From Mobula hypostoma (taxonomy: Eukaryota), in NCBI RefSeq assembly GCF_963921235.1, contig NC_086108.1, positions 77,006,001-77,070,000 on the forward strand: a stretch of DNA of 64,000 nucleotides, given 5' to 3'. Position numbers and translations under genes: made by a program. The stretch's first letter is position 1, and every line of letters starts with the position of its first letter. Below the pieces are notes generated by a model, which had not been told where the DNA came from, ran no database searches, and was given only the letters and a program-made list of their open reading frames with translations. Of this stretch, positions 6,467 through 63,112 are shown one piece after another.

Positions 6467-8955
6467 CCAGGATTGGGGCTTGGTGGACAGTAAGGAAAGG
6501 TATCAAAGCTTGCAGCCAGATCTAGACCAGCTGGAAAGATGGGCTGAAAAGTGCCAGATGGAATTTAATGCAGACAAGTGTGAAGTGTTGCATTTTGGGA
6601 GGATAAACCAGGATAGAACTTGCATGCTGAACAACAGGGCGCTGAGGGGTGTGGTAGAACAGAAGGATCTGTGGGAATATAGATCCATAATTCCTTGAAA
6701 ATGGCGTTACAGGTACATAGGGTTGTAAAGAGAGCTTTTGACACCTTTATAGATCGAAGTACAGGTGTCCCCCGCTTTTTGAAAGTTCGCTTTACGAAAC
6801 CTCACTGTTAGGAAAGATCTACATTAGTACCCTGGTTTTGCTTTCAGAAGGTGTTTTCACTGTTACGAAGAAAGGCAGCGCGCGATAAAAGGCAGCGCGC
6901 ACCCCGAGCAGCCGCTCGCCCCCGGATTTGGAACGGCATTGCTTAAACACGAGCCTGTGAGCAGCCGTTTGCAAGATGAGTTCTAAGGTGTCGGAAAAGC
7001 CTGAAGGAGCTCGTAAGGGTGTTACACTTAGCGTAAAACTAGACATAATTAAGCGTTTTGATCGTGGTGAATGAAGCAAGGACAAAGTGAGTTTGGCTTG
7101 TGGAAGCTGACGAAGATGATGTTGAAGAGGTTTTGGCATCCCATGACCAAGAACTGGTAGAAGAAGAGCTGATGCAATTGGAAGAGGAAAGAATAACAAT
7201 CGAAACCAAATTCAACCGAATGCAGAAAGTGAAGCAACTGCGTGAGACTTTCGCCGCAATTATAAAATACGATTTTAATTTTGAAAGGGTACGTAGGTTT
7301 AGGGGATATTTGGAGGATGTTTTGAGTCCTTACAAACAACTGTGTGATATAAAAATGCTCGAGGCTCAGCAGTCAAACAAGCCTTCCACATCAGCCACAG
7401 CAGACGACGAACCTAGATCTTCTACATCGAGACAGGCAGTCATAGGAGAAGATGAGCTGCCTGCCCTGATCGACGATGAGATGACACCCCCGTGTCCCAC
7501 CACCCCAACACCTGGGCCCCGGACAGATACTGTATCGATTCGCGGAGAATGCAGGGGTAGCTGGGAGGCACACAGCACATCTCTAAGAACATAGCCGAAA
7601 TAAACATGGTAATTAATTAGGTGCTGCCTAGCACGTCGTTGTCGGCCCAGATTAGTGCCGATGCAATCGGCAATCGCCTCTGATCTGCGCCGACATTTAC
7701 GTGCTGGGCAGCACCTAATTAATTAGCATGTTTATTTCGGCTTTTTTCTTAACGATGTGCTGTGTGCCTCCTGGCTACCCCTGCGTGCTTTGCGGCAATG
7801 TATCTGGTCGGCGGCCCGGAGGGTGGGGGCCACTGCATCACCCAGCCTGCGACGACTCAGTCTAACACACCATCATCAGTGTGCTCGATGTCTTCCCAAT
7901 TCCCGTAAGTGATACTACACTGTACATACATTATTTCTACTTTATATATGCTGTGTATTTTAACGTGTTATTTGGTAGATTTGGCAGCTTCATAGTTTAA
8001 AGGTTACTGAAGAGCGCGTTTATGCCAACAGCGCTTGCGTGAGATTTTCTGCTGAGAGCACTTGCGTGAAATTTTCGCTACGGAGATCCGTGCAGGCAAT
8101 GGTAGTAGAGAAGTATTTCTACTTTATATAGGCTGTGTATTTATCATATAATTCCTGTTTTTACTATATGTTACTGTTATTTTAGGTTTTATGTGTTATT
8201 TGGCATGATTTGGTAGGTTATTTTTGGGTCTGCGAACGGTCACAAAATTTTCCCATATAAATAAATGGTAATTGCTTCTTCGCTTTACAACATTTCGGCT
8301 TACGAACCATTTCATAGGAATGCTCTACCTTCGGATGGCGGGGGAAACCTGTATTGAGTACAGGAATTGGGATGTTATGTTGAAATTGTATAAGACGTTG
8401 GTGAGGCCTAATTTGGAGTGTTGTGACCAGAACTGCACACCTACCTACAGGAAATATTTCAATAAGATTGAAAGAGTATAGAAAAGTTAGAAGGATTTTG
8501 CTGGGACTTGATGACCTGAGTTATAGTGAGAGGTTGAAACGGTTAGGGCTTTATTCCCTAGAGCATTGGAGAGTGATTTGATAGAGGTATACAAAATTAT
8601 GAGGAGCATAGATAGGGTAAATGCAAGCAGGGTTTTTCCACTGAGGTTGAGTGAGACTAGAACTAAAGGTCATGGGTTAAGGATGGAAGGTGAAATGCTT
8701 AAGGGCGGAAGGTGAAATGCTTAAGGGCAACCTGAGGGGGAACCTCTTTACTCTGAGAGCAGTGAGATATGGAGCAAGCTTCCAGCGGAAGTATTGGATG
8801 CAGGTTTGATTTCAACATTTAAGAGAATTTTGGATAGTTATGTGGATAGGAGGTGTATGGAGGACTATGGTCCAGGTGCAGGTCAGTGGGACTAGGCAGA
8901 GTAATAATTTAACATGGACTAGATGGGCCAAAGGACCTGTTTCTGTGCTCTAGTA
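6467..8955 (+). mobile_element. CR1 LINE 3' fragment split by a Tigger insertion (6467-6761 and 8352-8955)
   Basis: DLDQLERWAEKCQMEFNADKCEVLHFG, then MLKLYKTLVRPNLE after the insertion. CR1 3' UTR gggccaaaggacctgtttctgtgct. Confidence 0.9.
6762..8351 (+). mobile_element. Tigger/pogo internal-deletion derivative, 1590 bp, TA TSD
   Basis: TA|CAGGTGTCCCCCGC...GCGGGGGAAACCTG|TA. The psq-HTH start MSSKVSEKPEGARKGVTLSVKLDIIKRFDRGE is fused to an acidic C-terminal region (ORF 7100-7594); the DDE core is absent. Confidence 0.92.
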
Positions 8956-12967: not shown

Positions 12968-13050
12968 AAAGTTTTGACCATCTAAAAGATCAAGGGTTCC
13001 TACAAAAAAAAGTTTTGACCATCTAAAAGATCAAGGGTTCCTACAAAAAA
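12968..13050. repeat. Exact tandem duplication, 41-bp period, 2 copies
   Basis: gttttgaccatctaaaagatcaagggttcctacaaaaaa at 12971 and 13012. Confidence 0.95.
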
Positions 13051-14962: not shown

Positions 14963-17900
14963 AGAAACATAGAAACATAGAAAACCTACAGCACAATACA
15001 GGCCCTTCCGTCCACAGAGTTGTGCCGAACATGTCCCTACCTTAGAAATTTCTAGGCTTACCTATAGCCCTCTATTTTACTAAGCTCCATGTACCTATCT
15101 AAAAGTCTCTTAAGAGACCCTGTTGTATCTGCCTCCACCACCGTTGCCGGCAGCCCATTCCATGCACTCACCACTCAATGAGTAAAAATCTTACCCCTGA
15201 CATCTCCTCTGTACTTACTCCCCAGCACTTTAAACTTGTATCCTCTTGTGGCAACCACTTCAGCCCTGGGAAAAAGCCTCTGACTATCCACACAATCAAT
15301 GCCTCTCATCATCTTATACACCTCTATCAGGTCACCTCTCATCCTCCACCGCTCCAAGGAGAGAAGGCCGAGTTCACTTAACCTATTCTCATAAGGCATG
15401 CTCCCCATTCCAGGCAACATCCTTGTAAATCTCCTCTGCACCCTTTCTATGGCTTCCACATCCTTCTTGTAGTGAGGTGACCAGAACTGAGCACAGTACT
15501 CCGAATGTGGTCTGACCAGGGTCCTATATAGCTACGACATTATGTCTCGGCTCCTAAATTCAGTTCCACGATTGATGAAGGCCAATACACCGTACGCCTT
15601 CTTAACTGCATAGTCAACCTGTGCAGCTGCTTTTATTGTCCTATGGACTTGGACCCCAAGATCCCTCTGATCCTCCACACTGCCAAGAGTCTTACCATTA
15701 ATACTATATTCTGCCATCATATTTGACCTACCAAAATGAACCACTTCACACTTATCTGGGTTGAACTCCGTCTGCCACTTCTCAGCCCAATTTTGCATCC
15801 TATAAATGTCCCACTGTAACCTCTGACAGCCCTCCACACTATCCAGAACACCTCCAACCTTTGTGTCATCAGCAAACTTACTAACCCATCCCTCCACTTC
15901 CTCATCCAGATCATTTATAAAAATCACAAAGAGTAATGGTCCCAGAACAGATCCCTGAGGCACTCCACTGGTGACCGACCTCCATGCAGAATATGACCCG
16001 TCTACAACCAATCTTTGCCTTCTGTGGGCAAGCCAGTTCTAGATCCACAAAGCAATGTTCCCTTGGATCCCATGCCTCCTTACTTTCTCAATAAGCCTTG
16101 CATGGGGTATCTTATCAAATGCCTTGCATGGGGTATCTTATCAAATGCCTTGCATGGGGTACCTTATCAAATGCCTTGCTGAAATCCATATACACTACAT
16201 CTACTGTTCTTCCTTCATCAATGTGTTTAGTCACATCCTCAAAAAATTCAATCAGGCTCGTAAGGCACGACCTGCCTTTGACAAAGCCATGCTGACTACT
16301 CCTAATCATATTATACCTCTCCAAATGTTCATAAATGCTGCTTCTCAGGACCTTCTCCATCAACTTACCAACCGCTGAGGTAAGACTCACTGGTCTATAA
16401 TTTCCTGGGTTATCTTTACTCCCTTTCTTGAATAAAGGAACAACATCCGCAACCCTCCAATCCTCCGGAACCTCTCGCGTTCCCATTGATGATGCAAAGA
16501 TTGTCGTCAGAGGCTCAGCAATCTCCTCCCTCACCTCCCACAGTAGCCTGGGGTACATTTCATCCAGTCCTGTCGACTTATCCAACTTGATGTTTTCCAA
16601 AAGCTCCAGCACATCCTCTTTCTTAATATCTACATGCTCAAGCTTTTCAGTCTGTTACAAGTCATCACTACAATCACCAAGATCCTTTTCCATAGTGAAT
16701 ATTGAAATAAAGTATTCATTAAGTACCTCTGCTATTTCCTCCGGCTCCATACACACTTTCCCACTGTCACACTTGATAGGTCCTATTCTTTCATGTCTTA
16801 TCCTCTTGCTCTTCTCATACTTGTAGAATGCCTTGGGGTTTTCCTTAATCCTACCCGCCAAGGCCTTCTCATGGCCCCTTCTGGCTCTCCTAATTTCCTT
16901 CTTAAGCTCCTTCTTATTAGCCTTATAATCTTCCAGATCTCTAACATTACCTCACTCTCTGAACCTTTTGTAAGCTTTTCTTTTCTTCTTGACTAGATTT
17001 ATTACAGCCTTTGTACCCCACGGTTCCTGTACCCTACCATAACTTCCCTGTCTCATTGGAACGTACCGATGCAGAACTCCACACAAATATCCCCTGAATA
17101 TTTGCCACATTTCTTCCTGAGAACATATGTTTCCAATTTAAGCCTCCAATTTCCTGCCTGATAGCCTCATAATTCCCCTTACTCCAATTAAACGCTTTTC
17201 TAACTTGTCTGTTCCTAACTTTCTCTAATGCTATTGTAAAGGAGATAAAATTATGATCACTATCTCCAAAATGCTCTCCCACTGAGAGATCTGACACCTG
17301 ACCAGGTTCATTTCCCAATACCATATCAAGTACAGCCTCTCCTCTTGTAGGCTTAGCTGCATATTGTGTCAAGAAACCTTCCAGAACACACCTAACAAAC
17401 TCCACCCCATCTAAACCCCTTGCTCTAGGGAGACGCCAATTCGATATTTGGGAAATTAAAATCTCCCATCATGACAACTTTGTTATTATTACACCTTTCC
17501 AGGATATGTTTCCCTATCTGCTCCTCGATATCCCTGTTACTATTGGGCAGCCTGTAAGAAACACCCAGTAAAGTTATTGACCCCTTCCTGTTTCTAACCT
17601 CCACCCACAGAGACTCCGTAGACAATCCCTCCATGGTGTCCACCTTTTCTGCAGCCGTGACACTATCCCTGATCAACAGTGCCATGCCCCCACCTCTTTC
17701 GCCTCCCTCCTTGTCCTTTCTGAAACATCTAAAACCCAGCACTTGAAGTAACTATTCCTGTCCCTGAGCCATCCAAGTCTCTGGAATGGCCACCACATCA
17801 TATCTCCAAGTACTGATCCGCGCTCTAAGCTCATCTGCTTTGTTCACAACACTCCCCATGTTAAAATAGATACATCTCAAACCTTTAGTCTGAGCGAGTC

Positions 17901-27161: not shown

Positions 27162-28509
27162 TCTGTTGGGATAATGTCTTTCCTGACTGGTGGGTGGATC
27201 ACTGCTTGGCAGGTGAGACTTGTGACTGTGAAACAATCTCAGGTTCTGGGGTCTCCTTGGTGGTTGTAGGAGTTGACTCTACGACTGCAGGAAGTGGCTT
27301 CAACAGCTCTGGACACCTTTCTTCTTCTCTAGGAATTGATTCTGCTCTTATCAACTGATCGATGTGTTGTCTCCAGATACAACAGTACAATCTCCACTGT
27401 GTAGGAAAGTGGTCCAGTTCTGTCTTAAATCTTGCCAAATACCCACTTTTGATCACCTTTGTAGTCCCCTGCCAGGACTGCTTGTTTAGGTTTGAAATTT
27501 CAAACCTCCTTGTTTTGAGGAGCTTTCAATTTGTCTCAGCTGTTTATCCTGCATACTTCTTCTGAGATTGGGTTTGAGGAGATCCAACCATAAATACAAG
27601 GGATAACCCTTGGTAAGTTGTTGGTGGTGAAGCATGCTGCATTAAGATTTGCAAGGTAGAAATCGGCGCGCTTCTGATTCAGTGTTAGTGTAGTGTGTTC
27701 TACTGACATTGCTTGCACTGTGTTTTTTAGACTATGGACAAACCTTTCTGCTAAGCTAATTGTAGCTGGGTGGTACGATGCAGATGTCTTATTCTTATTC
27801 CAATAGAACATGACTTATTCCATTCATTTCAGGAATGACTGAAAATGTTCTGCAACAAATTGTGGTCCATTGTCACTGAATAAGTGTTCTGGAACATCAG
27901 TCCTTGGAAAAAAGGCTTCTCAACTCATCAATACTGTGTGAGGCAGTAGTGGAAGCTATAGGGAACATTTCTGGCCATTTTGTAGCTGCATCCACTGCTA
28001 CCATAAAATTTGTGCCCATGAATGGTCCGGCAGGGGAATACTGGTCATTCCCAGAGATGTAGAGGCGCTGCTCTTTGATATCTTCAGAGAAAGCTGCTCA
28101 ACCTGCTGATCTTTCCCAGGCCACCAGAGAAAGCACTTTAACCACGCTTAGATGACCAGCATGTAGCTCCTCCAATACTACAACTCTCAGTCCCTTTGTA
28201 AAGCAACCCCCGTCAAGAGCAAGTTCATTCTGGCACTGGTAAAAATGGGGGGAACTGGAGTTTCAGCTGCACATTCCAGCCATTTTGGGTGGATATGTAG
28301 ACCTAGGACAGTGTAGGGTCTTTTCTGGTTTCCCTTTGGATCATCTCTGCTGTAATAGGGAGACTTCTGATATGCGTTAGGGATAGTGTCCTCTTTTATA
28401 AATTTTTCAGGTATTTCTTTTTCCAAGGGTAAATGGGACAATTCCTCAGCATTTTCATGATTAGTCATCCTCTTGAATTTGATCTTATAATTGTATCCTC
28501 CAAGAAATA

Positions 28510-29107
28510 TGAGGGGGTGATTGATAAGTTTGTGGCCTAAGGTAGAAGGAGTCAATTTTAGAAAACCTAGCACATTTATTTTTCAGTGTAGTCCCCTCCT
28601 ACAGCTACACACTTAGTCCAGCAGTCATGGAGCGTATGGATCTTGGACCTCCAGAAAGTGTCCACAGCAGGGGTGATTGATAAGTTCGTGGCCTAAGATA
28701 GAAAGAGATGAGTTATACAGCTGTCATTACATGCACATGCAGGTCAACTCTTTGAGTGATTATGCAGAAAGTTTGAGGTTAATAACTCATTGTCGAGTGT
28801 AGGCTACGAACTTATCAATCACCCCTGATGAGTTATTAACTTCAAACTTTCTGCATAATCACTCAAAGAGTTGAACTGCATGTGCATGTAACGAGAGCCG
28901 TATAACTCATCTCCTTCTGCCCTAGGCCACGAACTTATCAATCACCCCTGCTGTGGACACCTTCTGGAGGTCCAAGATCCGTATGCTCCACGACCTCTGG
29001 ACTAAGTGTGTAGATGTAGGAGGGGACTACGTTGAAAAATAAATGTGCTAGGTTTTCTAAAATTGACTCCTTCTACCTTAGGCCATGAACTGATCAATCA
29101 CCCCTCG
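28510..29107. mobile_element. Mariner-derived fold-back MITE, 598 bp, TA TSD
   Basis: TA|(C/T)GAGGGG(G)TGATTGATAAGTT...TCAATCACCCCTCG|TA with arms of about 280 bp. The right arm reads RMLHDLWTKCVDVGGDYVEK* (mariner C-terminus). Removing it restores the Gypsy frame WAL/FLGGY. Confidence 0.93.
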
Positions 29108-32100
29108 TAGAGCCCACCTCTGCATTGGTACTGTTGCTGTTAGTGGAACATCTTTCTGTGGATTGAAAATGGATACTAGTGGTTGATGATCTGTAGTGAA
29201 GGCAAACTCTTTCCCATACAAGTACTGGTTGAAGCATTTTACATCCCAAACCAGACTGAAGACCTCTCTGTCAACTTGTGAGTAATTTTTCTCTGTAGTA
29301 GTAAGGGAACATGGTGAAAAGGCTATGGATGTTCATTTCCATCACTGATAACATGTGATATGACTGTACCTGTATCATTAGGCCAGGCATTACAGGCAAG
29401 TTTCACTGGACAGTATGGATCATAATGTCTGAGTATAATGTCTGCTGTCGCAATTTCTTCTGCCTTTTGGAAAGCAACCTCACATTGCTTTGTCCATTGC
29501 CATTTCTTCCTAATCTGTAGTAATAGGTTCAAGGAATGGAACACAGTAACCAGGTTTGGCAGGAACCTGTTATAGTATTTGACAGATATTAGAAAGGACT
29601 GCAACTGTGACACGTCCTTTAGCCATGGGGTATTCACCACTGCTTGAATTTTCTCACACACTTGTGTAATCCTTGTGTGTCAATGGTGTGACTACAGTAA
29701 GGGATGCTTGGTTTAAAGAATTCACACTTGTTGCATCATGCTCTGAGTCTATTACCTTTTAATCTTTTTAACACTTGTGAAATTTTGAAGATGTTTCTCA
29801 TCCTTTCCGGTAATAATGATGTCATTCAGGTAACATTGAGTGTGTGGGCAGCCTTACAGCATCTGGTCCATAGTTTTCTGCCAGAGTGCAGGTGCAGATG
29901 CTACTCCAAAAATATGCCCATTATAGCCCTTTGTGTGTTTGTATAGTGAGATACATTTTGAACTCTTCTTCCATCTCCATCTGTAGGTAGGCCTCAACTA
30001 TGTCATCTTTGCGGAAATATTTCCCTCCAGAGGGGTTTGCAAAGATATCCCTTTCAGGGCAGAAGATATTGATCAACTTTCTGTACTGAGTTGATGGTGA
30101 CCTTAAAAATCATCACAGATCCTGACGGACACATTCTCTTGGCTCTGTGATCACCGGTGTTGACCATGGGCACCACTCAACCTTGGAAAGAATTCCTTCA
30201 GTCTCCGTACAATCTAGTACCCTGGCTACTCTATCACAAAGGTATAAGGAACCGGACAGCCTTGTAAAACTTGGGTGTGCCATTTTCATTTAACATTATC
30301 TTACCCTTGATATATTTGAGTTTTCTAATGCTATCCTTGAACACCGCTGTGGCATCATTTAAAACCTTCCTTAATTCGTTTTCAGTTGACTCTTGCAGGA
30401 GATGTGACACGAAACTGGTGGATGGATCTCCACTTAGAAATTGTAGATGTTTCAGGCACTCACATCCCCACAATGCTGGCCCTCCTGTTTTCATCACATA
30501 CAAGCCAAAGTGGCTTATTGGATGTTGTGTTTCACTGTTACGAATATCTTTCCCACAGGAGTTACCTATTCTCCAGTAAAAGTTCTTACTTGGATATCTG
30601 CAGGCTTCAGTTCAATATCTTTGAAATGCAGTTCAAACGCATGTTGTGGAAACTGAATCAGCTGAGCCAGTGTCCAATTGCATTTTAATTAATTTGCTGT
30701 TCACTACAGGTGTAAGCCATATTGCTTGTCTCTCATTAGTGTTCACATTGTAAATCTTAAGGCCGTGTAGTCCTGTGTCATTCTCATCATCATCAGATTT
30801 TTTATCAATAGCATGCAGATTAGTGCTCTTTCTGAAACTGCAATTTGACTTTTAAAAATCTTTTTTATCTTCCCTGTGCAGCCATCTATTTTTGTCTGCC
30901 CAACATGCTGTTTGTATATGTCCTACTTTGTTGCAATTTCTGCAAGAAGCCTGCATTGGTCTGGTGTATGTGAACCACTGCCACGATGGTAACACAATTT
31001 GTTTAGCCAGGCCTGATGTGTACAATTTCGTTCACGCTCACTTTCATTCCTGACTGTAGCTCAATTGCATTTCTGTCTGTTGTTTTCAATGATACAGCAA
31101 TTTCAACTGCGCTTTTAACTATGAGTTGTGCTTCAGTTAGGAGTAATTTTTAATGCTTTTTTTGTAAGATTCCACAAACTAAACGATCTTTCAGTGCATC
31201 ATTAAGCTCATCACTAAACTGACAATGCTCAGACAACTTTTCAATTCAGCCATGTATGCTAAAATGGACTCACCTTCCTTTTGATTCCTCTTATGAAACC
31301 TAAAGCATTCTGCAAACAACAGTGGTTTTGGTTCTAAATGTTTCTGAATTAGTTTCATGATATCAGCAAAGCTCATTTTGGCTGGTTTGGATGGGGCAGT
31401 TAAACTTCTAAGCAAACTGTATGCTTTTCCACATATTACACGCAGCAGAACTGGCACTTACTTTGCATTAGCTATTTCATTTGCTTCAAAATACTGCTCA
31501 GCTCGCTCACTGTAGATATTCCAGTCATTTTTTGTGCAATAGAATGCACCTATCTGTCCAATATAGCCAGCCATTTCTGCTCTTTTAAAAAAATTTATGA
31601 TTATTATCACCCAGTACTCACTTTATGAACCTGTGAATTCACTCATTTTCTGCCTTTTTTAAAAAAAACTTAAATGTCTTTCCCCTCATGCGAAGAAAAA
31701 ATAAGCCTCAATTTTTTTTTATCTTGAACATCTCACTGCGCTTTTTTAAAAACTGGAATGTATCGCTGCACTTCAACAGGTAGGTTGTCATCTTAGTTTC
31801 ATTTAAAGTTTCCTCATCATGTCTGTTATGTTTTGTAACACCAAAAGATACAACTAAGTGCAAGAAAAAGGCAGGAGCCCAGGAGAACGTGTACATTTTA
31901 ATTTTAGTGAGGCATGCACATGTGACAGTGGCTTAATGAAGTATGTAAACAACAAAGAATACTTAACTAAACAATGTATTAACAATATTACTCAAGTATT
32001 ACTGAAATAATAAATACACAACAGCGATTAAACAGCATATAGGGGGGAGATTGAAAATCTGGCTTAGTGGTACCATAACAGCAACCTTTCACTCGGTGTC

Positions 32101-33356: not shown

Positions 33357-35098
33357 CATGAGTGAGTCTGGTAATTTGCTTACAGGACTTCACTGAAATT
33401 TAGAAGCCTAGCAAAATGTGCGTTGTATTTTCAATTTTGCCGGTAAGCTTTAGTAATTTCTAGTTCAAAAAAAATAAATTGCATGTGAGCTGCGATACTT
33501 GCTGCCATGGCATCAGTAATCCAATTCTGCATCTCAGTGATTTTATCACTTGACACCTGCTGTTTCTGTAGGTGAATGGGGGAAATACTGTTTAAGTTGA
33601 TTTGGTGTGATTTGATTTTTCCACAAATATGTAACTTCTCATAGTTTCAGGTATTTCTGTTTTCTGTCTCTGTCCCAATGCTAATTATTTTCTACTATTC
33701 TCTGCAGCTTGTCTTGCTCAGTTCCATAATACCAAATTGAGTGCAGCATTCCATTTTCAACTTGACATGTGTATTGAACTGGATCACCAACAAATGAGCA
33801 GTACTTCCATTACATTGAACTTACACTTCCCTGAAGACTTTATGTGGCTTGATTGTCTGATTGAATGTTTGCCCATGACTTGCCTTCAGTTCGATGGGTC
33901 GAGCCAAGGACAAATTCTACACCATCTGTCCATCATTGCACAGAGGGAGGCTACGTGACTCAGCCTTACTTGTTTTGATAATGTGCAATACCTAGCCCTT
34001 CCAGGCGATTGCTGGGCACAACCTTAGAGATATTTCTCCGTTGTTTCCTGTTTTGGTGACGCAGGGAGTGGCTTCGTAACCAGCCCGAGTCCAAATAAGG
34101 ACTTAGCTGAACAACATTACTAAGAGTTTCCATATCAGTCACATGAGAAGAAATATATATTACTTAACCTCTATTATCTACTTTACTGTTTACTAGTCCA
34201 AAAAAATACAATGGCCTTCAATATTCCTCACCATGAAACTATATGCTACATTCCTTCCCAAGTATCTGCTGTATTCTGTCCTGTTATTGCCATATTGTTC
34301 CTCAAATATCTGCAATATTCTGCCTCCACAAAGTCCTTTGAGTGCCATATCCTCCCAGAACTATCTGGTCACAGACCCCCACACTTCCTCCTTCGTAAAA
34401 AGTGAACCATTGATTAGTCTTCATTGCATTTTAGTGTTCTAGCTAACTTCAACTGGTGGGTAGAAAGTGTAACATCAGCAGTTCGCATTTCTGCAGCTTC
34501 AAAAGATCCAGGAATCAGTGTGCTTCACACTCTAATATGCAGTAATTAAGATTCAAGCCATCTGGTACACTTTAATGTGTGTGTGGATTTGTGGGAACAG
34601 AAAAACCATGGCATTTCTCTTCGATCTGTCATATAGTTTAACCAATCAAGCCTCAAAGATTGTCTACAAAGTTTACATATAGAACATAGAATAGTACAGC
34701 ACATTACAGGCCTTTCGGCCCACAATGTTGTGCCGACCCTCAAACCCTGCCTCCCATATAATCCCCCACCTTAAATTCCTCCACATACCTGTCTAATAGT
34801 CTCTTAAATTTCACGAGTGTACCTGCCTCCACCACTGACTCAGGCAGTGCATTCCACGCCCCAACCACTCTCTGAGTGAAAAAACCTTCCTCTAATATCC
34901 CCCTTGAACTTCCCACCCCTTACCTTAAAGCCATGTCCTGTGCTGGCTATACACTCTATCTATTCCTCTTATTATCTTGTACACCTCGGGTATCATGTCT
35001 CCTCTCATCCTCCTTTTCTGCAAAGAGTAAAGCCCTAGCTCCCTTAATCTCTGATCATAATGCATACTCTCTAAACCAGGCAGCTTCCTGGTAAATCT

Positions 35099-37509
35099 TC
35101 AACCCTCCTCTTCTTCATGGACACCCCGCTCTGGTCTTCTGCCTGCTCTGGATCTCTTTATCGCTAACTGCCAACGGGACATCAACCGTCTCGACTTTAC
35201 CGCACCTTGTCCCCATTCCAACCTCACTCCTTCGGAACGCTCTGCTCTCCACTCCCTCCGCACTAATCCTAACCTTATTATTAAACCCGCCGATAAGGGG
35301 GGTGCTGTTGTAGTCTGGCGTACTGACCTCTACCTTGCCGAGGCACAGCGACAACTCGCGGATACCTCCTCTTATTTACCCCTCGATCGTGACCCCACTA
35401 AGGAGCACCAGGCCATTGTCTCCCACACCATCACTGACTTTATCCGCTCAGGGGATCTTCCATCCACTGCTACCAACCTTATAGTTCCCACACCCCGCAC
35501 TTCCCGTTTCTACCTCCTACCCAAGATCCACAAACCTGCCTGTCCTGGCCGACCTATTATCTCAGCTTGCTCCTGCCCCACCGAACTCATTTCTGCATAC
35601 CTCGACACTGTTTTATCACCCCTTGTTCAATCCCTTCCGACCTATGTTCGTGACACTTCTCATGCTCTTAAACTTTTCGATGATTTTAAGTTCCCTGGCC
35701 CCCACCGCTTTATTTTCACCATGGATGTCCAGTCCTTATATACTTCCATCCCCCATCAGGAAGGTCTCAAAGCTCTACGCTTCTTTTTGGATTCCAGACC
35801 TAATCAGTTCCCCTCTACCACCACTCTGCTCCGTCTAGCGGAATTAGTCCTTACTCTTAATAATTTCTCCTTTGGCTCCTCCCACTTCCTCCAAACTAAA
35901 GGTGTAGCTATGGGCACCCGTATGGGTCCTAGCTATGCCTGCCTTTTTGTTGGCTTTGTGGAACAATCTATGTTCCGTACCTATTCTGGTATATGACCCC
36001 ACTTTTCCTTCGCTACATCGACAACTGTATTGGCGCTGCTTCCTGCACGCATGCTGAGCTCGTTGACTTTATTAACTTTGCCTCCAACTTTCACCCTGCC
36101 CTCAAGTTTACCTGGTCCATTTCCGACACCTCCCTCCCCTTTCTAGATCTTTCTGTCTCTGTCTCTGGAGACAGCTTATCCACTGATGTCTACTATAAGC
36201 CTACTGACTCTCACAGCTATCTGGACTATTCCTCTTCTCACCCTGTCTCTTGCGAAAACGCCATCCCCTTCTCGCAATTCCTCCGTCTCCACTGCATCTG
36301 CTCTCAGGATGAGGCTTTTCATTCTAGGACGAAGGAGATGTCTTCCTTTTTTAAAGAAAGGGGCTTCCCTTCCTCCACTATCAACTCTGCTCTTAAAGGC
36401 ATCTCCCCCATTTCACATACATCTGCTCTCACTCCATCCTCCCGCCACCCCACTAGGAATAGGGTTCCCCTGGTCCTCACCTACCACCCCACCAGCCTCC
36501 GGGTCCAACATATTATTCTCCGTAACTTCCGCCACCTCCAACAGGATCCCACCACTAAGCACATCTTTCCCTCCCCCCCTCTGCATTCCGCAGGGATCGC
36601 TCCCTACACAACTCCCTTGTCCATTCGTCCCCCCTATCCCTCCCCACTGATCTCCCTCCTGGCACTTATACGTGTAAGCGGAACAAGTGCTACACATGCC
36701 CTTACACTTCCTCCCTTACCACCATTCAGGGCCCCAAACAGTCCTTCCAGGTGAGGCAACACTTCACCTGTGAGTTGACTGGGGTGATATACTGCGTCCG
36801 GTGCTCCCGATGTGGCCTTTTATATATTGGCGAGACCCAACGCAGACTGGGAGACCGCTTTGCTGAACATCTACGCTCTGTCCGCCAGAGAAAGCAGGAT
36901 CTCCCAGTGGCCACACATTTTAATTCCACATCCCATTCCCATTCTGACATGTCTATCCACGGCCTCCTCTACTGTAAAGATGAAGCCACACTCAGGTTGG
37001 AGGAACAACACCTTATATTCCGTCTGGGTAGCCTCCAACCTGATGGCATGAACATCGACTTCTCTAACTTCCGCTAGGCCCCACCTCCCCCTCGTACCCC
37101 ATCTGTTACTTATTTTTATGCACACATTCTTTCTCTCACTCTCCTTTTTCTCCCTCTGTCCCTCTGAATATACCTCTTGCCCATCCTCTGGGTCCCCCCC
37201 ACCCCCCCTTGTCTTTCTTCCCGGACCTCCTGTTCCATGATCCTTTCGTATCCCCTTTTGCCTATCACCTGTCCAGCTCTTGGCTCTATCCCTCCCCCTC
37301 CTGTCTTCTCCTATCGTTTTGGATCTCCCCCTCCCCCTCCAACTTTCAAATCCCTTACTCACTCTTCCTTCAGTTAGTCCTGACGAAGGGTCTCGGCCTG
37401 AAACGTCGACTGCACCTCTTCCTACAGATGCTGCTTGGCCTGCTGCGTTCACCAGCAACTTTGTGGTGTGTTGCTTGAATTTCCAGCATCTGCAGTATTC
37501 CTGTTGTTT
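35099..37509 (+). mobile_element. Penelope-like element copy B (probably Neptune group): RT, Cys-rich linker, GIY-YIG and pLTR; inactivated
   Basis: IIKPADKGG, FYLLPKIHK, MDVQSLYTSIP, GVAMGTRMGPSYA, RYIDN (YIDD mutated), CKRNKCYTC, VIYC..YIGET. 14-bp TSD TTCCTGGTAAATCT at 35085-35098 and 37510-37523. Stop plus frameshift near 35995 and a frameshift near 36580. Confidence 0.96.
37376..37411 (+). ncRNA. Minimal type I hammerhead ribozyme motif in pLTR (predicted cleavage after 37407)
   Basis: AGTC-CTGACGA-AGGGTCTCGGCCT-GAAAC-GTC-GACT: stem I AGTC/GACT, intact CUGANGA and GAAA core, palindromic ACGT stem III. Confidence 0.85.
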
Positions 37510-50441: not shown

Positions 50442-50516
50442 GACTCCTACTCGATGCCCCTTACATCAATCCAGTGCTGGCACGTTCATTGTGAGGAATG
50501 CTGGCTCAGAACATTG
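50442..50516 (+). CDS. RNF220: RNF220 coding exon (75 bp, phase 0 to 0): DSYSMPLTSIQCWHVHCEECWLRTL, RING core
   Basis: Acceptor tttttattttgttcAG and donor GTaaga at 50517. The peptide matches the RNF220 RING as I recall it. The terminal exon (GAKKLCPQC...) was not seen in the window. Confidence 0.97.
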
Positions 50517-52896
50517 GTAAGAAACTCCTTTCATTTTCCCAAGTTTTTCCTTTCCTTTCTGTCATTCTGCCCTTGTGCCTTCAGGGAAGAGTGTTATAAT
50601 CTGTTCAAACATTGGACTACAGAAGGAAGCAATTAATAAGAAAATGCTCATCTGTTTCGCAGCCAGCATTTTCCAATACACAATTTATTATATAAACACT
50701 TTCACGACGTCCTTTAAAATTTGCTTGCTGTGGCGGCTTGTTACTAATGTTACCATTAAACCATACCCTGAAGACAGCAATAAAGTTGGAATGCTGGGCC
50801 CTTGCATCTTTAATCAAAGTGAATGCATGTAATCTTGTTACTGCTGTCTTTTTTTTATGAAACTGGGCAGTGCATGGCAACTGTGTATGTATGTATGTGA
50901 CTATGTAATGCTCATTGATTATTCTCATTAACCTGGTTCTATTTAAACTAAATCTTCTTTATAATAAGGAAAAGAAAGGAGAATTTTAATGATTGTGCTG
51001 CATAGATCATATATAAAACAAATGAAAACAACCAGTACCACAACTAGTGCTGTAAAAATTTAGAAGAAAGGGGTCTTTTCACACAGTTTTAAAGAGTGTT
51101 TGAAGTATAAAAAGAACTAATGAACTAAAAAGCATACATTTATTGCTGAGCTTAATACACTAGGGTTGAAGTAAGTTCATTATAACAATTAAGATACTGC
51201 TTTAGACTATGATTAAATGTTCCTTAACATATATAATCATTTTTGAAAGCCTGATGTTTCTTTATTCATCCTATTCCTACAATATCAGAGACATAGGGTA
51301 GGGTGAGGTAGCTGGGCAGTGAGTGATGTTCTTATATTAAATTGCCCCAATCCAATATGCTAGATTTGATTAATGTTACATTGATCAATTTTCATATCTG
51401 TTATGTGCCTCCACTTTTCACCATTAGCTAAGAAGCTAGTAGGTTTAGTTTACACTCTGCTTTGTGATTAGTGGTTAACACCTCACTTTAATCTTCTGGT
51501 CATTGGGAAATATTGATTGTCGGTATAAGAGTACAATGATTTGACTACTGGGTTTCATGCTAACGTAGCGTATCTTCAGTATCAGGTATTGTTCACATTA
51601 ATTCCAACAGTTTTGTCTCCATTGCAGATTGCTTAGTAGCAGAGATACCAACAGTGGAACTGTAGACAGGGGTATTGTGACACTACAACTGTTTTGTACA
51701 GGCAATGGTATAGAAGCAGATTGATTTGGTATTGTGTACATATGACAAAAATGAAGTATTAATTTCCATTGTTATCTTAGGGAATTTAAATTAGAGTTAG
51801 TCTAATCACACCTCAGAGTGAAATGGGAACAGGTTTCCACAAAGAGATTATTGTGCATGGGTGTAATTGTTTTTATTGTATGTTTGTCTTTGTTTTTAAA
51901 GAATAATGCTGGATCAAAAACATGTACAGCAGTTTTTAGAAAAAATATCTCAACACATTACACAAAGGTGTAATCATTCAGAAATGGACTTTGAACTGAG
52001 AAAAAATGGAGATATCAGAAAAGATGTCCAAAAATATGATTAGATTAGGAGCATTTTAACCAGTTGCATAGATGGGTGAAGACTTGCCCGCCAATGGTGA
52101 GATGAAGAGAGAGAATTTAAGTGGAAGTGCTAAAGGAATAGAGGGTTACTTAGGTTTTGGATTAGAATTAAGCAAATGTGAGTGGTAAACCATGAAGGAA
52201 TTAAAAATCAGGCTGAGGTATAGATTGCAAGCCAATGGGCAGACAGATACGATAGATGGGTAGGCTGGTATGGTGGCTGCTGAGATATGGCACCGGAATT
52301 TTGAATGAGCAAGAGGCAGAATGATTTGAAAGGACAAAGTAGCTGAATCTGCCTTGAAAAGTTGAAGTTTAGCAAGTAGAGAGCCTGACTCTTACAGGAA
52401 ACCCTCATCACATAAATAGTAAATTCTCATTTTCAAGATTTAATGTATGTTGATTGCTTAAGGGGAAGCCTCTTTATTATTCTGATATATTGTGGAAAGT
52501 AATAATGTCTGTAAATTATGATAAATTTACTCTTTTGTAGTGAATGCAGCATTCATTTATCTGGTCATGTTAAATAAAACATCAGTTGGTTTATAGCCTC
52601 AATCTCGGCCTAGCTGACTAAAAGTTCAATCTTTTTCTGTCCTTTTTTGAGTGTTTATAATCAATCTAACATAGACAAAGGGAATCACGTAGTGACATAT
52701 GAAACAAGCTAGTTCACAGTGGCAGTACTCTTTATTCAACTTTTAAATCTTGCAAACAATTACTGAGGTATTGAAAACTTTTGTTCTTCCAGGTGTCATG
52801 AATAGCCAGTTGTTTGGTGTTTCAGTGGTCTTAGTTGTTATGGTGTAATCTTAGGCCCTTTTAAAGCAACAGTTATAATAGAGCGTTTAGATAGTG

Positions 52897-60227: not shown

Positions 60228-62643
60228 ATTTGCAAAGTGGAATTCTTTCCTGTAGTTCAAAATGTTAAAGGAAAACTGTCAGTTTCAAATATATTCCATT
60301 ACTGACCTTTTGATAAAATACTTATGACTAAATAAATTCAGACTATACATCTATCTAGCCTGTTAGTAAAACTTGATTCATGTCTTGTAGAAAGTATGTC
60401 CAAAAAGAAAGCATGTTTGCTTTACAGAAGTTGTACTTTGTGAACTTGTGATTTATTGGAAAATGAATAGCCATGTTTTCCCCAGTGAGCCCTTCTGTAC
60501 TGCGTATTGGAAGCCCAGTGAGTGGCTAATCTGCTTCCCTGCAATAACTCGTTTAACATTGCTGTGTACAGCGCAACACGACAGTAATAGTTTAAATTAC
60601 AAATGGCAGAAATGAAGCCACACAGCTTGAAGCTATAGTCTTCTGGCTGTACTCTTTCTGTTTACTCTGAAGTAGACACCTAGAGTTTCATTAGCATTTG
60701 AGATGAATTGGTATATTTACCTCTTCAAAATATTTTTGAAGATGCGTAGACATTTTTCTCAGGATGCTTTGACCAACAGTATATTTTTCTCCTTGATTTA
60801 TCTCGTCATACTATGCTTTGCGGATTTCTAGGTATCTATTTATAGGCTCTTATCAATACAAATCTTAATCTAAGTGTTCTGAGATATGCAATAGAACACT
60901 TACGCTTTTCGGGGAAAGTGGGTTAACTCACTACACAAGCACGCAAGGATTTAAAGCTATCTTACTTATTCCCAATTTCTGTTTCTTTGCCTGCTACTTG
61001 TGTAGTTGATGTCCGATTGACCAAAATGTATCATGGCCTTCCTGCAAGATGATATTGGAGGCCTGTCACCTCAGATGTTCAATTGAAGAGAATAGTTTAG
61101 GAAGTCTGGGCAGGAGATGCTAGGAAGCAATGCTTCGTTGACCTTGTGGTTTTAATGTCAACCTTCCGTGGCAAATGTTTGCACAGTTCATACAAATTTA
61201 TATTGACACACAAAGAAAACTGCCTATCTGTTAATCAGAACAGTGTAACTAAGACTGCTCTTACTATCAAGGCTGTTGAGAGCAAACAGGATTAACAAGC
61301 TCGGTTGTCAAGTGAACTCAACCCTTTCAGGTTACTTTACTGATTACTCTGTTAATATTGAGCTTTGGCATTGCAGTTAGTGGCTATTGTTCTTGCATTA
61401 TCTCCTTTTGGCACTTCAGCTTCTGATAGTAGTTAGAGGTAACCACTCATTCTAATGTCTGTTCACACCTTTTTGCTGTCACTTTCTTTGATAGATGAGC
61501 TAATGGTAGTAGATCATTTACTTGCTTGTTCAGACTCACTTGTCATTGTTATGAGAAGGAGCAAGGGCTGTGTGGGTCATTGAATTCCTCTTCAGTACAA
61601 TAATTACTTGGTGTATAATATTTTTGAGTTCTGTATATTAACCCCTAGGAATCTGTCACAGGACTGCATGAGTTTGCACAATAGCTGCAAATTATGGCTT
61701 CGTCCCAGTTTGTATTTGCGTTTGAAGATGCACTATAAGCCTTCCCTGGCTCTGAATTGCTGGGGTAAGCTCTAACACAGATAAGGTGAACTCAAGATAT
61801 AGGAAGTGGTAAGGAAAGAAGAGAGTAGAACACAAACCAGCAAATCAAGCCTGCTTAATTATTTGAACAGGGTCTATTGAAGGAAGAGAAATATCTCAAA
61901 TTTTACATTTAGATTTTTAAATTTTAAAAATCAAAACAAAAGATGAGAAATCCCTGCAGTTCTAGTGATGTGATCCTGACTTAAGGGAAGAAGACCTGCA
62001 GTCTCTCTGTTGAGTAGTACAAGAGGCAGGGGGAGTGGGGGTGGAGAGAGAGAGTAAAATCTTGAAAGGGTAATGGAATGGGCAGATACGAGCCAAATCC
62101 AGTTATATATAGATAAAATGAAGAAAAAACATTTGGCATAAGAAGTGGCAAAAGAAATTGTAAAGTACTGGATTCCAGTATTTAAAGATGATTCAGAAAC
62201 ACCGAGGAAATAGAAGCTGGAGTAGGCCATATGATTTCTCAAATCTACTCCACCATTCAATAAGGTAATGTCCATTTTCTTGCCGAATCCACATATCTGC
62301 TGAACTTCCTGGGGATGTTCAACTATTTTATCAATCTCAGCTTTCAATATACTCAATTATCGATCTCTAAGGTGAGACAACAGCTTTTCACCAACCATTT
62401 TACCAATCCCTGTCATCTACCCTTCTGTGAGATTATCAGTCATTCATTTATACTCCAATGCAAATGAGCTTGTCTTTAATCATTAAACAATACTTTCATC
62501 ATGGGAATGAAATTAACATGTATATAATTTCTTAGATAAAAAGAAATGCACTGTTTGTTTTTACTAAACCTCAAATCTTGAGGAAGTTTAATCTTAAATG
62601 TGGCCTTAAGTATATAAAGGCCAAGCATTCAAAGGGCACACCC

Positions 62644-62742
62644 CAATTAACAGCACTGATGATGACTCCTTGTATGGTGATGAAACGTTTGCAATTAACA
62701 GCACTGATGATGACTCCTTGTATGGTGATGAAACGTTTGCAA
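62644..62742 (+). repeat. Exact 48-bp tandem duplication, each unit a hammerhead-like motif
   Basis: caattaacaGCA-CTGATGA-tgactccttgtatggtgat-GAAAC-GTT-TG at 62644 and 62692. Confidence 0.9.
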
Positions 62743-63112
62743 GTAAATTGCCAAGATCTGAGAACCACTCAATCCAACCAGTTGTATATCTCTTTGCATC
62801 TTCTGTAGGTGATTTTCCAACCTGGCTTTATAAGATCAATGCACATAAGTCGCAATTTCCCATGTTATCTATCATGAATGGAAGTTCTAAATAGCAAATA
62901 TCCTTGAAATAATACTTGTAGCCGCCTTTGAGTAGCAGTCATCCTGCCTAAAATGACGCATTTATTCTGTCCTTTCAGATAGTCTTTCATGCTGGTTAAT
63001 ATCTAAACTCCATACTTTCCCAACCATGTAAGCTCCTTTAGTTTATATAAAGCACTTGTTTGGCACCCTGCACAGATTCATTTTGATGTACTAAACAGTG
63101 CCTTGAAAAAGT

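What the first reader, a model, noticed from the sequence alone, without database searches (positions are those of the whole stretch)
62644..62742. Exact 48-bp duplication that is a tandem pair of minimal hammerhead ribozymes, sense to RNF220 pre-mRNA
Seen: each unit reads GCA-CTGATGA-(19 nt)-GAAAC-GTT-TGC (62653-62692 and 62701-62740). Stem I is GCA/TGC, extendable by TTAA/TTAA across a 2x2 loop in copy 1, and a self-complementary AAACGTTT replaces a stem III loop. The motif differs from the other hammerheads in the window. Established: Penelope-like elements carry minimal type I hammerheads with a palindromic stem III that are thought to cleave as dimers. Inference: this is a pLTR remnant of a second (Poseidon-like) Penelope family, and the duplication supplies the dimer partner in cis. 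Cleavage after 62689 and 62737 would release a 48-nt monomer, like a retrozyme or satellite unit. Caveat: stem II (GACTCC/GGTGAT) has two mismatches, so activity may be low.
Basis: partly seen in the sequence, partly recalled or inferred. Interest (0 to 1): 0.75.

Follow-up and report, generated by a model that had tools for sequence, protein, structure and literature searches.

The report
Decayed Penelope hammerhead, locally duplicated
The 48-base doubling is real, but it is a one-off copy inside a worn-out fragment of an old Penelope-type jumping gene in the last intron of RNF220, likely made by an ordinary DNA copying slip after the fragment had decayed, so it is probably an inert accident and not a working ribozyme pair or a new mobile element.

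Summary
62644-62742 is an exact 2x48-bp duplication with a 3-bp microhomology, present in reads. Each unit has an intact minimal-hammerhead core and lies sense in the last RNF220 intron. The motif is the pLTR hammerhead of an old Penelope/Poseidon-type element: in 20 of 20 endonuclease-selected loci it lies downstream in sense, and 0 of 18 show the Neptune cysteine linker.

The dimer is not a family feature. Its junction is unique in 3.48 Gb (1 of 265 strict sites; 0.1-0.8 expected from in-genome rates). Both units share a 2-nt stem I deletion seen in 0 of 85 other copies, and a related species has the same insertion single-copy without that deletion. So the doubling came after insertion and decay, likely by microhomology-mediated duplication.

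Stem II has lost its G-C closing pair and gained an A.A mismatch, and family copies show no covariation. A double hammerhead can be drawn, but activity is untested and probably low. The retrozyme/satellite reading is not supported. The scan has noted similar tandem Penelope hammerheads on other DNA. Side result: the genome's dominant family has 8-fold more tandem junctions around its hammerhead than around a neighbouring segment.

The parts
62607..62780 (+). Solitary pLTR fragment of an old Penelope/Poseidon-type element (126 bp plus the 48-bp duplication); no ORF remnant of this family nearby
   Evidence: Family contigs begin at 62607 and end at 62780 (loose ends). BLAST with two longer family copies hits only this stretch in the window, 8 kb upstream and 30 kb downstream.
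62612..62619 (+). TATA-like box of the pLTR; in longer copies a CCAAT-like box lies upstream (promoter role inferred, untested)
   Evidence: Sequence; family columns
62644..62691 (+). Duplication unit 1 (48 bp)
62692..62739 (+). Duplication unit 2 (48 bp, identical)
   Evidence: junction contig in reads
62740..62742 (+). 3-bp microhomology CAA (also at 62644-46 and 62692-94)
62653..62692 (+). Minimal hammerhead copy 1: stem I arm, core, extra U after A9, weakened stem II (62664-62681), GAAA, ACGU palindrome, predicted cut after 62689
   Evidence: anatomy as in PMC4209133
62701..62740 (+). Minimal hammerhead copy 2, predicted cut after 62737
50443..50517 (+). Penultimate RNF220 exon (RING part); the intron that follows holds the finding

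Best explanation
This is a short end-fragment (pLTR) of an old Penelope/Poseidon-type retrotransposon carrying that family's minimal hammerhead, in which a 48-bp stretch was doubled after the fragment had decayed, likely by microhomology-mediated tandem duplication, and which is probably a neutral passenger with little or no cleavage in the RNF220 intron. Order of events: (1) the fragment inserted before organisms A-D split (shown: contigs of all four run from unique flank into the element); (2) it decayed by CpG transitions, a stem II T>A change and a 2-nt deletion in the stem I 5' arm (shown against 85 family copies); (3) a CAA-to-CAA slip copied the decayed unit in lineage A (duplication and shared derived states shown; the slippage mechanism is inferred); (4) the two units could pair their ACGU palindromes into a double hammerhead, but stem II is G.U, A.A, C-G, U.U, C-G, C-G and the inner stem I is 3 bp, so cleavage would be slow (inferred, untested).
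For: The junction is found once in 3.48 Gb with a tight pattern and with a CpG-tolerant gapped pattern, against 266 strict family matches and at least 2208 candidates. 0 of 46 sampled family loci have a same-strand partner within about 1.5 kb, while 22 of 46 have the inverted partner typical of PLEs. Both units share the 2-nt deletion (0 of 85 other copies) and the stem II A (5 of 85) and are 100% identical, while unbiased family copies are 74% identical to each other. In organism B one contig runs unbroken from unique flank to 62694 with the two deleted letters still present and its last letter not matching the junction. Expected tandems among 265 sites are 0.10-0.81 at rates measured in this genome. 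Three other exact 22-41-bp doublets lie in the same window. Family copies decay neutrally: the core is intact in 4 of 23 endonuclease-selected copies and covariation does not exceed shuffles (476 of 500 as high). The stem II hairpin is -1.2 kcal/mol against -3.4 or -4.7 for typical copies. Even undamaged PLE minimal hammerheads cleave weakly as dimers in vitro (PMC4209133). Over 50% of exact doublets in the human reference carry microhomology arms (PMC13167724).
Against: The catalytic core, the ACGU palindrome and a 3-bp stem I are intact here, which is so in only 4 of 23 unbiased copies for the core alone. The duplication encloses exactly one whole hammerhead. The folding ensemble does not show inactivity: 7 of 7 tandems of the intact dominant family score even lower probabilities for the active fold. 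A 3-bp microhomology can arise by chance. Only one sample of organism A shows the junction, and it is probably the assembly's source. Single-copy status is clear only for organism B, rests on one contig, is weakly suggested for C and is undetermined for D.
Confidence: 0.85

Rival explanations
1. The accidental duplication created a cis-active double hammerhead that cuts the RNF220 last intron in vivo at a rate that matters. Core 1 would cut after 62737 using the outer arms, and core 2 would cut after 62689 using a 3-bp hairpin.
For: All core residues are present. The nested double-hammerhead fold is possible and the family's stem I extension fits the outer arms. It lies sense in a transcribed gene. 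Tandem dimers rescue minimal hammerheads to low activity (PMC4209133). The junction depth equals the flank depth, so it is homozygous in the sample laid.
Against: The conserved G10.1-C11.1 pair (PMC4209133) is G.U here, followed by A.A. The double-hammerhead fold is only -2.1 kcal/mol against -14.3 for the best fold, and against -4.9 to -18.7 for dominant-family tandems. The triplet is GUU, slower than GUC (recalled). It is not conserved in organism B.
Confidence: 0.08
2. The tandem was made at insertion by a reverse-transcriptase restart (PLE partial tandem), as appears to happen in the genome's dominant family, and the units were later homogenised.
For: The dominant family has 199 head-to-tail hammerhead junctions, 8.1-fold more per copy than a neighbouring segment. 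Several sit at the 5' edge of the insertion. Partial tandems are typical of PLEs (PMC8557442).
Against: Organism B has the same insertion single-copy. The units share rare derived states and are identical in a family about 25% diverged between copies. Here 37 bp of pLTR precede unit 1, so it is internal, not at the 5' edge.
Confidence: 0.04
3. A nascent retrozyme or satellite: a 48-nt monomer is excised, circularised and re-inserted.
For: Head-to-tail hammerhead repeats are the form of metazoan non-LTR retrozymes (PMC7229834 passages).
Against: Two units only, one locus in the genome. Retrozyme monomers are about 220-400 nt with canonical hammerheads. The junction lies 2-5 nt downstream of the cut site at a microhomology, not at the cut site.
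Confidence: 0.02
4. An assembly artefact.
For: Short exact doublets can be consensus errors; the window has four in 64 kb against two loci in 241 kb elsewhere.
Against: A double-depth 51-bp contig and a junction contig at flank depth in a run's own contigs.
Confidence: 0.01

Closest known systems
Minimal type I hammerheads (min-HHR) in pLTRs of metazoan Penelope-like elements (Cervera and de la Pena 2014, PMC4209133; parts 1-2 of 4 of the text read)
   Same: Core, unpaired nucleotide between A9 and 10.1, palindrome in place of helix III, short helix I, long helix II, place in the pLTR, mostly single truncated copies, opposite-strand pairs 100-700 bp apart.
   Different: This copy has lost G10.1-C11.1 and 2 nt of the stem I arm. 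The family's stem II carries a U.U. The 48-bp head-to-tail spacing is a local duplication, not the roughly 3-kb pLTR tandem.
Penelope/Poseidon clade of EN+ PLEs (Craig et al. 2021, PMC8557442; passages read)
   Same: C-terminal GIY-YIG upstream of the hammerhead, no CX2-5CxxC linker, frequent inverted 5' copies.
   Different: Only a 126-bp non-coding remnant here. No RT tree was built and no full-length copy was sought.
Microhomology-mediated tandem duplication (Wei et al. 2026, PMC13167724; abstract and section 13 read)
   Same: Exact 1x-to-2x doublet flanked by a short microhomology, lineage-specific, non-coding.
   Different: It happens to enclose a ribozyme motif. The arm is only 3 bp.
Metazoan non-LTR retrozymes (Cervera and de la Pena 2020, PMC7229834; passages read)
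   Same: Head-to-tail type I hammerhead repeats that can act as dimers.
   Different: Those are about 220-400-nt units with canonical hammerheads, multi-locus and expressed as circles. This is 48 nt, single-locus, minimal and damaged.
Conserved intronic hammerheads of amniotes (RECK, CTCL, DTNB; PMC6155905 passage read)
   Same: Sense in an intron.
   Different: Those are canonical and conserved across species. This one is decayed and the doubling is absent from a close relative.

Membership tests
PLE minimal hammerhead (min-HHR) | Catalytic core CUGANGA ... GAAA and NUH cut site | tested here: met
PLE minimal hammerhead (min-HHR) | Extra nucleotide between 9 and 10.1; palindromic 15.x-16.x | tested here: met
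   U at 62663, ACGU at 62685-88; U in 91% of 85 copies
PLE minimal hammerhead (min-HHR) | G10.1-C11.1 pair and a paired helix II | tested here: not met
   G.U, then A.A, in this copy; 4 of 6 columns pair. The family's CpG pattern points to an ancestral G-C (28 G-C and 47 G.U of 85).
PLE minimal hammerhead (min-HHR) | Stems supported by covariation | tested here: not met
   62 rows: 81% of cells paired against 23-38% for slid controls, but covariation is no higher than shuffles. Copies of one dead family have little power for this.
PLE minimal hammerhead (min-HHR) | Located in the pLTR of a PLE | tested here: met
   20 of 20 endonuclease-selected loci carry the motif downstream in sense, 18 within about 200 bp
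PLE minimal hammerhead (min-HHR) | Self-cleavage as a dimer | not testable with these tools
   Folding ensembles do not discriminate
Penelope/Poseidon clade | C-terminal GIY-YIG endonuclease | tested here: inconclusive
   Remnants align to the window's GIY-YIG ORF (E 0.001-0.03). Pfam GIY-YIG E 0.012, below cut-off, in 1 of 2 remnants scanned. The motif order is clear in translations.
Penelope/Poseidon clade | No CX2-5CxxC linker between RT and EN | tested here: met
   0 of 18 loci (broken frames, stops read as X). The dominant family has the linker.
Penelope/Poseidon clade | RT phylogeny | not tested
   No reference RTs on hand
Non-LTR retrozyme | Multi-locus tandem units of about 200-400 nt with a canonical hammerhead | tested here: not met
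   48 nt, one locus, minimal motif
Non-LTR retrozyme | Circular RNA in vivo | not testable with these tools
   Only contigs, no raw RNA reads
Microhomology-mediated tandem duplication | Exact doublet with a microhomology arm; single-copy ancestral allele | tested here: met

The most novel reading that the evidence does not exclude
One replication slip turned a dead, monomeric transposon hammerhead into a working double hammerhead in the last intron of RNF220: a ribozyme born by duplication in a single species, cutting the pre-mRNA and releasing a 48-nt piece. With its single-copy orthologue in a sister species it would be a natural before/after test of the dimer model.
Probability: 0.08. Interest if true: 0.55.

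Novelty: new member of a known kind. Interest (0 to 1): 0.14.

Why it matters
As it most likely stands, it matters little: one more decayed Penelope hammerhead and one ordinary doublet. If it cleaved, it would show how an intronic ribozyme can arise in one step from transposon debris. The intact tandems of the dominant family (199 junctions) are better natural substrates for testing the dimer model of minimal hammerheads than this damaged pair.

Tried and rejected
Rfam at gathering and at E up to 10: no hammerhead family, only sub-threshold snoRNA-like matches from UGAUGA. This is uninformative, since the dominant-family motif in the same range is missed too; a C/D snoRNA reading was rejected (16.5 bits against a cut-off of 41). 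Plain folding of the stretch is no better than shuffles (z +1.44). The ensemble probability of the double hammerhead (about 1e-10 to 1e-11) was dropped as an argument, because 7 of 7 dominant-family tandems score lower. Expression: no RNA holder listed on record. Organisms C and D hold the insertion but their copy number was not settled. One control pattern was badly chosen, matched nothing and was replaced. No clear target-site duplication at 62607/62780 by eye. A look-up of earlier findings by sequence was blank. Paper searches: one for hammerhead + Penelope + shark returned a single review that uses 'shark' only for the name; one for stem II/minizyme rates returned nothing, so the effect of stem II damage and of GUU on rate is recalled, not read. 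No supplements were read; those of PMC4209133 may list similar fish families. Rows left out: 24 of 85 copies were not put in alignment A1 (16 chosen by an exact hammerhead pattern, 8 truncated or with indels); 3 duplicate loci were dropped; 2 of 20 loci were dropped as duplicates of earlier loci.

Full report
Observation. The stretch 62644-62742 is two identical 48-bp units plus a third copy of the 3-bp start CAA. Core-like motifs occur 8 times in the window against 0.70 expected. The doubling is in reads: in run X1, probably the assembly's own sample, a 51-bp contig covers 62644-62694 at depth 22.4 against 11.2 for both flanks, and a junction contig covers 62665-62721 at 10.9. RNF220 domain exons lie on + upstream. 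The last two exons, found with recalled RING motifs, flank the site with proper splice ends. The stretch is therefore sense in the last intron, about 12.1 kb from its start and 5.0 kb from its end.

What the unit is. It belongs to a dispersed repeat with at least 2208 candidate places and 266 strict matches. Here the element spans 62607-62780 and no other piece of the family lies in the window, 8 kb upstream or 30 kb downstream. Family loci carry remnants of a GIY-YIG-like ORF. In 20 of 20 loci picked by that ORF, the hammerhead lies downstream in sense, 18 of them within about 200 bp. Pfam GIY-YIG matches one of two remnants weakly (E 0.012, below cut-off). None of 18 translated loci has the CX2-5CxxC linker that marks Neptune and Nematis and is absent from Penelope/Poseidon (PMC8557442, passages); the window's dominant PLE family has it. 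22 of 46 loci have an inverted partner and 0 of 46 a direct one.

When the doubling arose. The junction occurs once in the genome under two patterns. Both units lack 2 nt in the 5' arm of stem I, a state found in 0 of 85 other copies, and both have A at stem II position 2, found in 5 of 85. Copies chosen without regard to the hammerhead are 74% identical to each other over 56 nt, so two units made at insertion would not still be identical. In organism B a single contig runs from unique flank through 62694 without the break that a 51-bp repeat forces. It retains the two deleted letters, and its final letter does not continue into the junction. Organisms C and D also hold the insertion, but their copy number was not settled. 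The order is therefore insertion, decay, split from B, doubling. An exact doublet with a short microhomology arm is the common form of tandem duplication (PMC13167724, abstract and section 13); the slippage mechanism here is inferred.

Is it more than chance? In the dominant family, tandem junctions number 199 per 65,081 hammerhead sites (0.31%) and 42 per 110,946 sites of a neighbouring non-hammerhead segment (0.038%). Applied to 265 sites of this family these rates predict 0.81 and 0.10 tandems; one is seen, and it was chosen because it was seen. The window holds three other exact doublets of 22-41 bp; other loci held two such places in 241 kb. A tandem minimal hammerhead is thus not rare in this genome.

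Would it cleave? Stem II reads G.U, A.A, C-G, U.U, C-G, C-G. The U.U is the family norm (74 of 85; all 61 matches of a pattern allowing A or T there have T); a few copies have the pairing A. The G.U follows CpG decay of the G10.1-C11.1 pair that PMC4209133 calls highly conserved. The hairpin is -1.2 kcal/mol against -3.4 or -4.7 in typical copies. A nested double hammerhead can be drawn: core 1 would cut after 62737 using the outer arms and the family's stem I extension, and core 2 would cut after 62689 using a 3-bp hairpin with an 8-nt loop. Its energy is -2.1 kcal/mol against -14.3 for the best fold. Against my reading: seven tandems of the intact dominant family give even lower ensemble probabilities, so folding does not prove inactivity; and this copy's core is intact, as in only 4 of 23 unbiased copies. 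The family shows the stems by pairing (81% of cells against 23-38% for slid controls) but no covariation above shuffles (61 of 85 copies plus the window), and core CpG positions decay like flank CpGs, as expected of dead copies. Published dimers and trimers of a minimal hammerhead cleaved only weakly, and a single motif not at all (PMC4209133, parts 1-2 of 4 read). Slow cleavage at high Mg2+ is possible; a physiological effect is unlikely (inference). Expression and RNA ends could not be examined.

Comparison and verdict. It is a damaged member of the known PLE minimal hammerheads, doubled by a known kind of mutation. It is not a retrozyme: those have about 220-400-nt multi-locus units with canonical hammerheads (PMC7229834 passages). 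It is unlike the conserved intronic hammerheads of amniotes (PMC6155905 passage). I found no paper on this family in the searches made; most subscription papers and all supplements were not seen. Earlier notes of this scan reached similar readings for other tandem Penelope hammerheads, in this and other genomes; they are unchecked and not counted as support. Interest 0.14.

Side result. The 8.1-fold excess of tandem junctions around the dominant family's hammerhead (Fisher p about 7e-48, junctions not all independent) is not explained by random duplication. In the listed junctions the second unit often restarts a few bases before the core and the first often ends about 0-7 or 20-30 nt after the cut site, and trimers and tetramers occur (100 of 199 listed). 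Of eight loci inspected, several sit at the 5' edge of the insertion or next to an inverted piece. This suggests reverse-transcriptase restarts at a preferred 5' end near the ribozyme, in line with PLE partial tandems (PMC8557442); it was not tested further.

Noticed in passing
genome-wide; e.g. L080-L090, G000:C22:156787342-156787460: The dominant Neptune-type family has 199 head-to-tail hammerhead junctions at short period, including trimers and tetramers, 8.1-fold more per copy than a neighbouring segment. Junction offsets cluster near the ribozyme's stem I arms; likely reverse-transcriptase restarts at insertion.
   Followed up: partly
window 37380, 58062 (+); 63205, 52988, 38780 (-); 26897 (+): Hammerheads of the dominant family and a variant; 65,081 exact core matches genome-wide. 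58062 is sense in the same RNF220 intron.
   Followed up: partly
window 35061-37450 (+): Long, frameshifted Neptune-type PLE with RT, cysteine linker and GIY-YIG (Pfam E 5e-5) followed by its hammerhead.
   Followed up: partly
window 8685-8728, 12968-13050, 16095-16179: Three other exact or near-exact tandem doublings (22, 41, 26 bp); four in 64 kb is denser than in 241 kb of other loci.
   Followed up: partly
e.g. G000:C2:18376108, C2:122046484, C21:174247482; L027: A minority of copies of this second family have A instead of T at stem II position 4, giving a fully paired stem II; possibly a subfamily.
   Followed up: no
window 51552-51579 (-): A further core-like motif unlike both families; not examined.
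   Followed up: no
window 27200-31460 (-): Remnants of an LTR-retrotransposon-like gag/pol region in an RNF220 intron, seen only as broken frames (assignment recalled).
   Followed up: no
L043:1-1184: 47-bp minisatellite next to an inverted pair of family copies.
   Followed up: no
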